A stretch of 64,000 nucleotides of DNA, from NCBI RefSeq assembly GCF_009914755.1, contig NC_060931.1. One strand, 5' to 3'. A program made the position numbers and the translations under genes. The notes below the pieces were generated by a model. That model saw nothing but the letters and a program-made list of their open reading frames with translations. It was not told the DNA's origin and did no database searches. Positions 34,201-36,858 of the stretch are shown here, one piece after another. This DNA is from the human T2T-CHM13v2.0 reference genome, Homo sapiens. Every line of letters begins with the position of its first letter. The first letter of the stretch is position 1.

Positions 34201-36858
34201 GGGTGACGGGCTCACGCCTGTAATCCCAGCACTTTGGGAGGCAGAGACTGGCAGATCAGTTGAGGTCAGGAGTTTAAGACCAGCCTGGGCAACATGGTGA
34301 AACCCTGTCTCTACTAAAAATACAAAAATTAGCCAGACATGGTGATGGGTGCCTGTAACCCCAGCTACTCAGGAGGCTGAGACACAAGAATCGCTTGAAC
34401 TTGGGAGGCAGAGGCTGCAGTGAGCCAAGATCGGGTCATTGCACTCTAGCCTGGGTGACAAGAGTGAAACTCTGTCTCAAAAAAAAAAAAAAAAAGCCGG
34501 GCGTAATGGCTCACACCTGTAATCACAGCACTTTGGGAGGCTGAGGTGGGCGGATCACTTAAGGTCAGAATGCCTGTAATCTCGGCTATCTGGAAGGCTG
34601 AGGCAGGAGAATCACTTGAACCCAGGAGGCAGAAGTTGCAGTGAGCCAAGACTGCGCCATTGCACTCCAGCCTGGGCAACAAGAGCGAAACTCCATCTCA
34701 AAAACAAAACAAAACAAAAAATAAAGTTGTTTTTTTTTTTTGAGGTCTAAAGTATGAGCTCTTCTGTACTAGCTGATGTTTTAACAATGTGCACATTGTT
34801 AAACAATCATTTAAAGTAAATTATTTATTTAAAGTCATTTAAATTAAATGACTTTAATTTTTAAAAAAATCAGGCCGGGCACAGTGGCTCACACCTGTAA
34901 TCCCAGCACTTTGGGAGGCCAAGGCAGGCAGATCATGAGGTCAAGAGATCAAGACCATCCTGGCCAACATGGTGAAACACTATCTCTACTAAAAATACAA
35001 AAATTAGCCAGGTGTAATGCCTGTGATCCCAGCTACTTGGGAGGCTGAGGCAGGAGAATCGCTTGAACCCCAGGGGCAGAGGTTGTAGTGAGCCAAGATT
35101 GCACCACTGCACTGCAGCCTGGCGACAGAGTGAGACTCCGTCTCAAAAAAAAAAAAAAAAAGTACTATCTTGTTCCTCCACATCTTTACAGCACTTAGTG
35201 GACTTGCGGACTTGTAGAATGGAGAACACAAAGTTCATTCTCCTCATTGTACAGATGAGCAATGAGGAAAAAAGGCTTAATGACTTAACGATGTCACAGA
35301 GCCCATTGGTGATTAACCTGGGGCCAGGTTGGCAGCAGTAGTCGGCAGTTCCTGGGCTTCTATCCCAGTGTGCCTTCCACTATACCATGCTTCCAGTGCA
35401 AAATGTCAGCAAGGTTTACATAATTAAGAGAAAACAGTCATTTTCTTTGGGCCATCAGACACTTGTATTTGAAGGGATCCAGAACCTTCCTTGGAGTTTT
35501 TATTCTTTTCATTAAGATGGCAAATTAGGGTGGGCACAGTGGCTCACACCTGTAATCCCAGTACTTTTTGGAAGGCTAAGGCCGGAGGATCGCTTGAGTC
35601 CAGGAGTTCAAGACCAGCCCTGGGCAACATAGCAAGATCCTGTCTCTACAAAAAAGTTAGCTGGGTGTGGTGGCACATGCCTGTGTTCCCGGCTACACAG
35701 GAGGCTGAGGCAGGAGGATCTGTTGAGCCCAGGAGGTTGAGGCTACAGTGAGCTATGATGGTTCCACTGCACTCCAGCCTGGGTGACAGAGTGAGACTCT
35801 AAAAACAAAAAAAAGAAGGTAAAAAGAAGGATGATAAATTATATTAACACACTATGAGAATTAGCCAGGGGTGGTGGTGTGCACTTGTAGTCCCAGCTAT
35901 TAGGGACTCCATCGCTTGAGCCCAGGAGGTTGACTGCAGTGATCCAAGATCTTGCCACTGCATTCCAGCCTGAGTGATAGAGACCTTGTCTCTAAATAAA
36001 TAAATAAAAGAAGAGAAGGAACTATCAACAAATATTGAATGTTAATTGGCCGGGCATGGTGGCTCACACCTGTAATCCCAGCACTTTATTTAGAGACAAG
36101 GTCTCACTCTATCACCCAGGCTGGAATGCAGTGGCAAGATCTTGGATCACTGCAGTCAAACTCCCGGGCTCAAGCGATGGAGTCCCAAATAGCTGGGACT
36201 ACAAGTGCACACCACCACCCCTGGCTAATTCTCATAGTGTGTTAATATAATTTATCATCTGTCTTTTTTTTTTTTTTTTTTTGGAGTCTCTCTCTGTCAC
36301 CCAGGCTGGAGTGCAGTGTTGCGATCTCGGCTCACTGCAAGCTCCGCCTCCTGGGTTCACGCCATTCTCCTGCCTCAGCCTCCCGAGTAGCTGGGACTAC
36401 AGGCGCCCGCCACCACGCCTGGCTAATTTTTTGTATTTTTAGTAGAGATGGGGGTTTCACCATGTTAGCCAGGATGGTCTCGATCTCCTGACCTCGTGAC
36501 CCAACCGCCTCGGCCTCCTGAAGTGCTGGGATTACAGGAGTGAGCCACCCTGCCCGGCCCTCTCAGCACTTTTGGAGGCGCAGGTGGGTGGATCACAAGG
36601 TCAGGAGTTCGAGACCAGCCTGGCTAACATGGTGAAACCCCGTCTCTATTAAAAATACAAAATAAAATTAGCCAGGCATGGTGGTGCGTGCCTGTAGTCC
36701 CAGTTACACAGGAGGCTAAGACAGGAGGATCTCTTGAACCCAGGAGGTGGAGGTTGCAGTGAGCTGAGATCGCGCCACTGCACTCCAGCCTGGGCGACAG
36801 AGCGAGACTCCATCTCAGAAAAATAAATAGATAAATAAAAATAAAATTAAAAACCTGT

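What the first reader, a model, noticed from the sequence alone, without database searches (positions are those of the whole stretch)
35830..36572. AluY co-inserted with a 175-bp inverted copy of adjacent genomic DNA, all within one TSD
Seen: 36085-36259 is the reverse complement of 35830-36000, differing by about four substitutions and a 4-nt indel. It includes non-Alu sequence (gatgataaattatattaacacactatgag) and a private Alu deletion (gggactccatcgc). The spacer is only 84 nt. This copy plus an antisense AluY (~36264-36559) interrupts a sense Alu that starts at 36048 and resumes at 36561, with TSD tcccagcacttt (36076-36087) / tctcagcacttt (36561-36572). Inference: during target-primed reverse transcription the nicked end first copied local DNA (ttt/aaa microhomology), then jumped at an A-rich tract to Alu RNA. 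It differs from an ordinary 3' transduction because the source lies ~90 bp away and has no AluY upstream. A two-step history is the alternative.
Basis: partly seen in the sequence, partly recalled or inferred. Interest (0 to 1): 0.7.

Follow-up and report, generated by a model that had tools for sequence, protein, structure and literature searches.

The report
Inverted local copy at Alu tail
A 175-base stretch of human DNA was copied backwards and placed 84 bases away, exactly where an Alu element's T-tail meets its insertion scar; the sequence alone cannot show whether this happened during the Alu's insertion or later.

Summary
36085-36259 is the reverse complement of 35830-36000, with 167 of 171 aligned bases identical and one 4-nt indel. 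It includes 29 non-Alu bases that occur nowhere else in the genome hits. It lies between a 12-nt target-site duplication and the 19-T tail of a full-length antisense Alu nested in a sense Alu.

Three new points:
- The source also lies directly 3' of an older Alu's A-rich tail, so both ends of the copied segment are A-rich.
- The geometry matches the documented "3-2-1-4" replication template switch, which is enriched at long T-tracts (PMC5453318, PMC7954356).
- A single TSD does not show co-insertion, because a later insertion into the tail also stays inside the Alu's TSD.

If the Alu came first, its nick site is canonical (TTTT/G). If it was one event, the site is poor (CTTT/T). Dating leans weakly towards the arms being younger than the Alu (P about 0.07-0.09).

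Odds: two-step about 0.5, one-step TPRT with a template jump about 0.37. Primate orthologues would decide. No function is evident, and interest is modest.

The parts
35527..35799 (+). Older sense Alu ('Alu A') directly upstream of the source segment
   Evidence: Aligns to consensus positions 1-276 at 78%. It is only 205 of 262 identical to the inserted Alu.
35800..35829 (+). A-rich tail of Alu A. The copied segment ends here (switch point 3, somewhere in 35821-35830).
   Evidence: A5GA is shared with the copy, then 2 mismatches (35828, 35829).
35830..35858 (+). Non-repeat 29 nt, part of the source arm
   Evidence: 29 of 29 identical to the copy. In the own-genome search it is covered only by the two local copies.
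35859..36000 (+). 5'-truncated old Alu right arm ('Alu B') and the first unit of its (AAAT)n tail, part of the source arm. Switch point 2 is at 35998-36000.
   Evidence: Aligns to consensus 132-268 at 80%.
36001..36084 (.). 84-nt spacer: the rest of Alu B's tail, unique DNA, and the 5' piece of host Alu C
   Evidence: pair I16: 84 nt between the arms.
36048..36087 (+). Host sense Alu C, left piece
   Evidence: Consensus positions 2-41.
36076..36087 (+). Left target-site duplication
36085..36259 (-). Inverted copy of 35830-36000. The first 3 T (36085-36087) are shared with the TSD as microhomology.
   Evidence: 167 of 171 identical plus a 4-nt indel.
36260..36263 (-). 4-nt junction. It matches the source tail at 2 of 4 bases, so it is either an error-prone end of the copy or filler.
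   Evidence: tails and junction: 20 of 23.
36264..36282 (-). [quoted passage not shown]
36283..36559 (-). Full-length antisense Alu ('Alu D', Y/Sc lineage)
   Evidence: Consensus 2-277 with 16 substitutions and 1 indel. Its best genomic relatives are 92-94% identical.
36560..36560 (-). One extra base at the Alu's 5' end
   Evidence: 5' extra nucleotides are reported for 12.4% of full-length Alus (PMC2912911, passage seen).
36561..36572 (+). Right target-site duplication. The next base (36573) is T, so the pre-insertion target read ...CACTTTT/GG.
36573..36811 (+). Host sense Alu C, remainder of the body
   Evidence: The right piece, taken from 36561, aligns to consensus 30-277.

Best explanation
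The most likely history has two events.

First, a full-length Alu of the Y/Sc lineage inserted by ordinary target-primed reverse transcription into an older sense Alu. The nick site was canonical (CACTTTT/GG). This left a TSD of 12-13 bp with the poly(T) tract directly beside it.

Later, a DNA polymerase copying the + strand rightwards stopped within the first 0-3 T of that tract. The nascent 3' end folded back and paired TTT with AAA at 35998-36000, 84 nt upstream. It then copied the + strand backwards for about 175-180 nt, through the truncated Alu B and the 29 unique bases into the A-rich tail of Alu A. The end was now T-rich, and it re-annealed to the A-tract of the original template and went on.

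[quoted passage not shown] It creates an inverted repeat with no loss of sequence. The result is a 175-bp near-perfect inverted repeat with an 84-nt loop and no evident function.

Shown: the anatomy, the microhomologies, and the canonical site if the Alu inserted alone. Inferred: the order of events and the polymerase.
For: - The geometry and junctions fit. The switch points lie in the order 35821-30, 36000, 36087, 36088. There are 3 nt of TTT/AAA microhomology at the first jump and T5/A5 (plus GA) at the return.
- This event type is documented. '3-2-1-4' with its mirror makes up 31% of high-confidence human-chimp template-switch events (PMC5453318, passage).
- Regions around switch point 1 are enriched for T8, T10 and a long T-run motif of Alu-tail type, and such tracts are cited there as fork-stalling sites (PMC7954356, passage).
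- Local inverted duplications of this size are a common polymorphic class: 277 events, median 284 bp, mostly with 1-15 bp microhomology, read as replicative by the authors (PMC12350158, passages).
- With the Alu alone, the nick is TTTT/G with a 'closed snap'. As one event, the primer would be ...CCAGCACTTT, which has an open snap, no T in the six bases upstream, and a pyrimidine after the nick. That is outside the recognisable endonuclease targets defined in PMC3649969 (passages).
- Dating: the Alu has 5 non-CpG changes in 228 sites on one lineage, while the arms have 3 in 167 pairwise. Equal age predicts 7.3, and P(3 or fewer) = 0.066. With CpG weighting, 4 of 20 changes fall in the arms, P = 0.095.
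- The TSD encloses anything later inserted into the tail, so 'one TSD' is expected under this history.
Against: - The departure point lies in the first 0-3 of at least 20 T. That is roughly a 1-in-5 coincidence unless stalling at tract entry is favoured, whereas a TPRT primer end would be there by necessity.
- The dating tests are not significant (one-sided P = 0.18, 0.066 and 0.095). They rest on 8-20 substitutions. Gene conversion between the arms, or a source Alu that already differed from the consensus, would remove the lean.
- The published short-range events are mostly far shorter than 175 nt.
- Two mismatches within 4 nt at the return junction need error-prone synthesis or filler under any model.
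- No orthologue was available, so the intermediate allele (Alu present, copy absent) has not been seen.
Confidence: 0.5

Rival explanations
1. One TPRT event with snap-back on DNA. ORF2p nicked the + strand at CACTTT/T. The poor primer folded back onto the same strand at AAA (35998-36000) and was extended on DNA through to Alu A's A-rich tail. This gave it a T-rich end, which then engaged the poly(A) of the Alu RNA held by ORF2p. Reverse transcription of the whole Alu and normal second-strand steps produced the single 12-bp TSD.
For: - The copy starts exactly at the end of the TSD, as a primer end must.
- The primer is poor for poly(A) priming by the snap-velcro rules (PMC3649969 passages). 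The copying stops just when the end becomes T-rich.
- The ORF2p core polymerises efficiently on DNA templates, extends hairpins, adds untemplated bases and jumps templates in vitro (PMC10830420, passages).
- The dating is statistically compatible with a single age.
Against: - The nick CTTT/T is outside the endonuclease targets defined in PMC3649969.
- The cell-culture examples were attributed to the reciprocal end, not the priming end.
- The + strand must have been single-stranded over about 260 nt.
- The arms look younger than the Alu, though only weakly.
- I found no germline example in the searches.
Confidence: 0.25
2. One TPRT event with two RNA templates. The primer first annealed to the A-rich (AAAT)n tract of a + sense local transcript, for example a read-through transcript of Alu A still at the locus. 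It reverse-transcribed that RNA back to Alu A's tail, then switched to the poly(A) of an Alu Y/Sc RNA. This would be a chimeric retrocopy of the Alu/L1 or U6/L1 type.
For: - The architecture matches known chimeras: a full-length sense Alu 5' of a second retro-copied part, both in the same orientation, in one TSD. 452 Alu/L1 chimeras bounded by TSDs have been reported, with template switching or RNA ligation proposed (PMC13174262, passages).
- The copied segment begins and ends at A-rich tracts.
- Apart from a T5 inside Alu A, the first T4 run on the + strand downstream of Alu A is the target site itself.
Against: - An RNA acting in trans has no reason to insert 84 bp from its own gene. The model therefore needs a nascent or tethered transcript, for which there is no evidence here.
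- The T5 at 35565-35569 would now terminate Pol III inside Alu A.
- The nick site is poor, as in the DNA version.
- There is no cluster of A-to-G changes or other RNA signature. The copy carries 1 private change by my by-eye comparison of the 4 arm differences with the consensus.
Confidence: 0.12
3. The inverted duplication came first and the Alu then inserted independently at its edge.
For: The T-rich end of the copy would be a good endonuclease target.
Against: The Alu has no TSD of its own. The bases left of the T-run and right of the Alu's 5' end do not repeat each other (by eye). The 12-nt duplication of host-Alu positions 30-41 brackets the whole composite.
Confidence: 0.03
4. Ordinary 3' transduction of Alu A plus its flank, followed by gene conversion of the new Alu body to Y/Sc type.
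For: Both arms lie directly 3' of an Alu tail, and the local alignment runs on through both Alus.
Against: The Alu bodies are 78% identical against 97.7% for the flank (Fisher P = 7e-10). A full-length conversion ending exactly at the Alu's borders, plus a new pure T19 tail, would also be needed.
Confidence: 0.02
5. Assembly artefact (fold-back chimera) or chance similarity between Alus.
For: None, beyond the general difficulty of assembling hairpins.
Against: The arms differ by 4 substitutions and an indel, and the copy keeps consensus-like states that the source has lost (comparison with the consensus by eye). The 29 non-Alu bases are shared. The identity is far outside the Alu-pair background.
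Confidence: 0.01

Closest known systems
Short-range replication template switch, four-point model type 3-2-1-4 (Loytynoja and Goldman 2017, PMC5453318; Walker et al. 2021, PMC7954356), and the small local inverted duplications of long-read SV catalogues (PMC12350158)
   Same: A reverse-complement copy of sequence within about 100 nt. [quoted passage not shown] There is microhomology at both jumps and a long T-tract at the departure point. The size is within the range of catalogued inverted duplications (median 284 bp).
   Different: It is longer than most short-range events in the two template-switch papers. It sits in the first 3 T of an Alu tail, so it mimics a co-insertion. The ancestral allele has not been seen.
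Chimeric retrocopies made by ORF2p template switching or RNA ligation (U6/L1; Alu/L1 chimeras, PMC13174262)
   Same: A full-length sense Alu 5' of a second part, both in the same orientation, in one TSD, with an A-rich 3' end.
   Different: The 3' part is not L1 or an mRNA from elsewhere. It is a copy of DNA 84 bp from the insertion site, and the nick site is non-canonical if read as one event.
L1/SVA-type 3' transduction
   Same: Unique flanking sequence lies 3' of a retroelement's poly(A) and inside the TSD, and the source locus can be identified.
   Different: The element upstream of the source is a different, older Alu (78% identity). The source is adjacent and inverted rather than at a distant progenitor.
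L1-associated fold-backs and locally templated insertions in L1-overexpressing cells (PMC11702581)
   Same: Self-annealing of a 3' end near an ORF2p nick, with extra sequence templated from nearby genomic DNA.
   Different: Those cases were large fold-back rearrangements, or were ascribed to the reciprocal end. Here the extra DNA lies at the priming end, and the locus is otherwise intact and in the germline.
Twin priming (5' inversion of L1)
   Same: An inverted segment inside a single TSD.
   Different: Twin priming inverts the 5' part of the same RNA. Here the inverted part is host DNA at the 3' end, and the Alu itself is uninverted and full length.

Membership tests
Replication/repair template-switch inverted duplication (four-point 3-2-1-4) | Inserted fragment is the reverse complement of nearby sequence | tested here: met
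   167 of 171 identical, 84 nt away.
Replication/repair template-switch inverted duplication (four-point 3-2-1-4) | Switch points in the order 3-2-1-4 with no loss of flanking sequence | tested here: met
   35821-30 < 36000 < 36087 < next base. The host Alu is continuous apart from the TSD.
Replication/repair template-switch inverted duplication (four-point 3-2-1-4) | Microhomology at the junctions | tested here: met
   TTT/AAA (3 nt) at the first jump. T5 against A5 at the return, followed by 2 mismatches in 4 nt.
Replication/repair template-switch inverted duplication (four-point 3-2-1-4) | An ancestral allele that has the flanks (here the Alu) but lacks the copy | not testable with these tools
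   No primate or other human assemblies were available.
Single canonical TPRT insertion | TSD bracketing the insert | tested here: met
   Host-Alu consensus positions 30-41 are present twice. The copies agree at 11 of 12 bases.
Single canonical TPRT insertion | Poly(A) tail abutting the 3' TSD | tested here: not met
   About 176 nt lie between the TSD and the T19 run.
Single canonical TPRT insertion | Endonuclease-type nick site and a T-rich primer | tested here: inconclusive
   CTTT/T with a T-free upstream hexamer if the composite is one insert. TTTT/G if the Alu went in alone (definitions from PMC3649969).
3' transduction | Progenitor element of the same sequence directly upstream of the transduced segment | tested here: not met
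   Alu A against the inserted Alu: 205 of 262 (78%).
3' transduction | Transduced segment traceable to one source locus | tested here: met
   Only the two local copies cover the unique part, among 40 scored hits of 712 candidates. The tool warns that its counts are lower bounds.
Chimeric retrocopy by RT template switching | Two parts in the same orientation in one TSD, with a full-length 5' partner | tested here: met
Chimeric retrocopy by RT template switching | Both parts arrive on the same branch of the phylogeny | not testable with these tools
   No orthologues. Internal dating is compatible but leans the other way.
Twin priming | Inverted segment is the 5' part of the same retrotransposed RNA | tested here: not met
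   The inverted segment is local genomic DNA at the 3' side, and the Alu is full length.

The most novel reading that the evidence does not exclude
The Alu and the inverted copy are one retrotransposition event. An ORF2p-nicked, poorly T-matched primer snapped back onto its own DNA strand and was extended on DNA until it had copied a neighbouring Alu's A-tail. Only then did it capture the poly(A) of the Alu RNA. The locus would then be a germline fossil of DNA-templated 'primer repair' preceding reverse transcription. It would also imply a class of Alu/L1 insertions carrying inverted local DNA between tail and TSD.
Probability: 0.25. Interest if true: 0.55.

Novelty: new member of a known kind. 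Interest (0 to 1): 0.3.

Why it matters
The locus shows how a later template switch at an Alu's T-tract can imitate a complex 'co-insertion' within one TSD. This matters for pipelines that use a shared TSD as proof of a single retrotransposition event.

If orthologues showed a single event, it would be a rare natural record of ORF2p, or a partner polymerase, copying local DNA before engaging RNA. That activity has been seen in vitro and in overexpression systems.

Either way, the product is a 175-bp, 97.7% inverted repeat with an 84-nt loop about 9.4 kb upstream of RAC1. It folds very stably as a single strand (-220 kcal/mol, z = -39.6). Inverted repeats of this kind are treated as a source of hairpin and cruciform instability, and closely spaced inverted Alu pairs as under-represented, in PMC3855049 and PMC3215922 (start of abstracts only). 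No regulatory or coding role is indicated by the annotation supplied.

Tried and rejected
- Chance Alu-Alu similarity: rejected.
- Ordinary 3' transduction from the upstream Alu: rejected on 78% against 97.7% identity.
- Independent Alu insertion into a pre-existing inverted duplication: no separate TSD (by eye).
- A TSD for the older Alu A (GATGGCAAATTA / GATGATAAATTA): 237 of 2,000 shuffles score as well, so it is not used as evidence.
- Dating the Alu against the arms: run three ways (P = 0.18, 0.066 and 0.095). It leans towards younger arms but is not significant.
The only survey is of 177 kb already in hand. That sample is biased towards loci chosen for holding Alus and found no second case.
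- Literature searches turned up no description of an Alu with inverted local DNA between tail and TSD. These covered open-access text only, and the supplementary figures of PMC11702581 (S9, S10), which may show similar junctions, were not seen.
- PMC3024322 and PMC4666360 gave nothing that bears on the frequency of such junctions.
- Subfamily assignment (AluY or AluSc) could not be tested without a repeat library.
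Full report
**Anatomy.** Reading the + strand, with alignments to an Alu consensus built from the 29 nearest genomic relatives of the inserted Alu, the elements are:
- An old sense Alu, 'A': body 35527-35799 and A-rich tail 35800-29.
- 29 non-repeat bases, 35830-58.
- A 5'-truncated old Alu right arm, 'B', from 35859, with an (AAAT)3AAAA tail from 35994.
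- Unique DNA.
- A sense host Alu, 'C', in two pieces: 36048-36087 (consensus 2-41) and 36561-36811 (consensus 30-277).

Between the two pieces of C lie:
- The inverted copy, 36085/88-36259.
- Four junction bases, 36260-63.
- A pure T19 run, 36264-82.
- A full-length antisense Alu, 'D', 36283-36559 (consensus 2-277).
- One extra base, 36560.

Host positions 30-41 occur twice, which is the 12-nt TSD. The two copies agree at 11 of 12 bases.

- The arms are 167 of 171 identical with one 4-nt indel, and the 29 unique bases match 29 of 29.
- The spacer is 84 nt.
- In an own-genome search with 35822-35905, 40 of 712 candidates were scored. Only the two local copies cover the unique part, and the other 38 start at query position 28 or later, inside the Alu-derived part. 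The tool warns that its counts are lower bounds.
- Background: in 177,271 bases (window plus 35 loci), 3,335 inverted pairs of 100 nt or more were found and none reached 94%. The 234 pairs with a spacer of 2 kb or less had a median of 80.4% and a maximum of 92.4%.
- In that loose scan, this pair appears as a 358-nt match at 86.3%, because BLAST ran on into the Alus.
- A stringent scan recovers the core at 97.4% over 153 nt. It is the only one of 26 close inverted matches with at least 95% identity over at least 100 nt.
- The arms are not identical, so a fold-back assembly artefact is unlikely.

A gapped local alignment does not stop at 35830. It runs on through Alu A against Alu D (35532-35814 against 36555-36269), but at 78%.
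- Both arms therefore lie directly 3' of an Alu tail.
- The step from 78% to 97.7% is sharp (Fisher P = 7e-10).
- D is not a copy of A, so ordinary 3' transduction is out.
- The copied segment does end inside A's A-rich tail. A5GA is shared, followed by two mismatches.
- Both ends of the copied segment are therefore A-rich: TTT/AAA at the start, and a T-rich end against an A-run at the finish.

**Why 'one TSD' does not decide.** The sequence requires three steps:
1. A + strand 3' end at 36087 paired with 35998-36000.
2. It copied the + strand leftwards.
3. It resumed on an A-run.

That A-run could be the poly(A) of an Alu RNA during TPRT, which makes one event. It could equally be the A-strand of an Alu tail already in the chromosome, which makes two events. 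The products are identical, and in the second case the Alu's own TSD still brackets everything.

**Evidence on the two-step side.**
- The event is a '3-2-1-4' switch, which with its mirror makes up 31% of high-confidence human-chimp events (PMC5453318, passages).
- Switch point 1 is enriched for T8 (183 events), T10 (101 events) and a long T-run motif (102 events). Poly(dA:dT) tracts are cited there as fork-stalling sites (PMC7954356, passages).
- Long-read data list 277 non-MEI inverted duplications with a median of 284 bp. They were called from alignments within 2 kb of the breakpoint, mostly show 1-15 bp microhomology, and are read as replicative by the authors (PMC12350158, passages).
- The pre-insertion target read ...CACTTTT/GG. 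An Alu inserting alone would have used a TTTT/G nick with a closed 'snap'. As one event, the primer must end CTTT, with no T in the six bases upstream and a T after the nick. The snap-velcro rules predict low or no priming there, and the site falls outside the endonuclease targets defined in PMC3649969 (passages).
- Dating:
  - Alu D differs from its family consensus at 16 of 276 positions plus one indel. Eleven changes fall at 48 CpG sites and 5 at 228 other sites.
  - Its best genomic relatives are 92-94% identical.
  - The arms differ at 3 non-CpG sites of 167 and at 1 CpG site. I assigned the arm differences and their site counts to CpG or non-CpG by eye.
  - Equal age predicts 7.3 non-CpG differences, and P(3 or fewer) = 0.066. 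The conditional binomial gives P = 0.18, and the CpG-weighted version gives P = 0.095.
  - This is a lean, not a result.

**Evidence on the one-step side.**
- The copy begins within the first 0-3 T of a tract of 20 or more T. That is exactly where a TPRT primer end must be. For a replication switch, this placement is only one of many possibilities along the tract.
- The very poorness of the CTTT primer could explain why it was first extended on DNA until it became T-rich.
- The ORF2p core polymerises on DNA templates, extends hairpins, adds untemplated bases and jumps templates (PMC10830420, passages).
- Template-switch chimeras with a full-length sense Alu at the 5' side inside one TSD are catalogued: 452 Alu/L1 cases (PMC13174262, passages).
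- Three L1-driven insertions with extra sequence templated from nearby genomic DNA were reported, though they were ascribed to the reciprocal end (PMC11702581, passages).
- An RNA version, with a local + sense transcript as the first template, is possible. It must explain why an RNA inserted 84 bp from its own gene, and a T5 run now lies inside Alu A.

**Weighing.** I know of no measured rate for either process at Alu tails. My rough estimates from the figures above put them within an order of magnitude of each other. The junction position favours one step by perhaps 3-6 fold. The nick site and the dating favour two steps by a similar combined factor. The replication process is the one documented in germlines.

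My odds are:
- Two steps: about 0.5.
- One step: about 0.37 (DNA snap-back 0.25, RNA first 0.12).
- Remaining histories together: under 0.1.

**Other points.**
- I compared the four arm differences listed with the consensus printed by eye. On that comparison, the source arm carries two derived substitutions and the 4-nt deletion, the copy carries one, and 35902 differs from the consensus in both arms.
- The single-stranded region 35800-36290 folds as one long hairpin (-220.3 kcal/mol). In 100 shuffles the mean was -52.7, giving z = -39.6.
- The supplied annotation places no gene or regulatory element on the structure. RAC1's first exon starts at 45927.
- The 'AluY' label is uncertain, as described above.

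**Limits.**
- No primate or other human assembly could be consulted.
- Supplementary figures of the L1 overexpression preprint were not seen.
- All papers were read as passages found by term search, not in full.

Noticed in passing
window 35565-35569: Alu A carries a T5 run at the place where the Alu consensus has TTT. As the sequence stands, it would act as a Pol III terminator about 40 nt into the element. It is the only run of 4 or more T on the + strand between Alu A's start and the insertion target.
   Followed up: partly
window 35994-36009 vs 36085-36095: The source tail now reads (AAAT)3AAAA, while the copy holds a single AAAT unit plus AAA. Either priming was at the innermost AAA or the microsatellite changed length afterwards.
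   Followed up: partly
window 36812-37175: Host Alu C's long A/T-rich tail runs straight into the annotated RPSAP73 fragment (36850-37169), which itself ends in an A-run. This may be another nested or chimeric retrocopy junction (and the supplied annotation).
   Followed up: no
window 38681-38956 and 37683-37980: Two other young Alus lie in inverted orientation to Alu D, within 1.1-2.1 kb, at 91.7% and 89.0% identity. They are the closest in-window relatives of Alu D.
   Followed up: no
L020 1476-2713; L015 1494-2922: Two loci fetched as relatives of Alu D hold inverted pairs of full-length young Alus. Identities are 92.4% and 91.4%, with 635- and 874-nt spacers. These are the highest-identity close inverted pairs in the 177-kb sample apart from the finding.
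   Followed up: no
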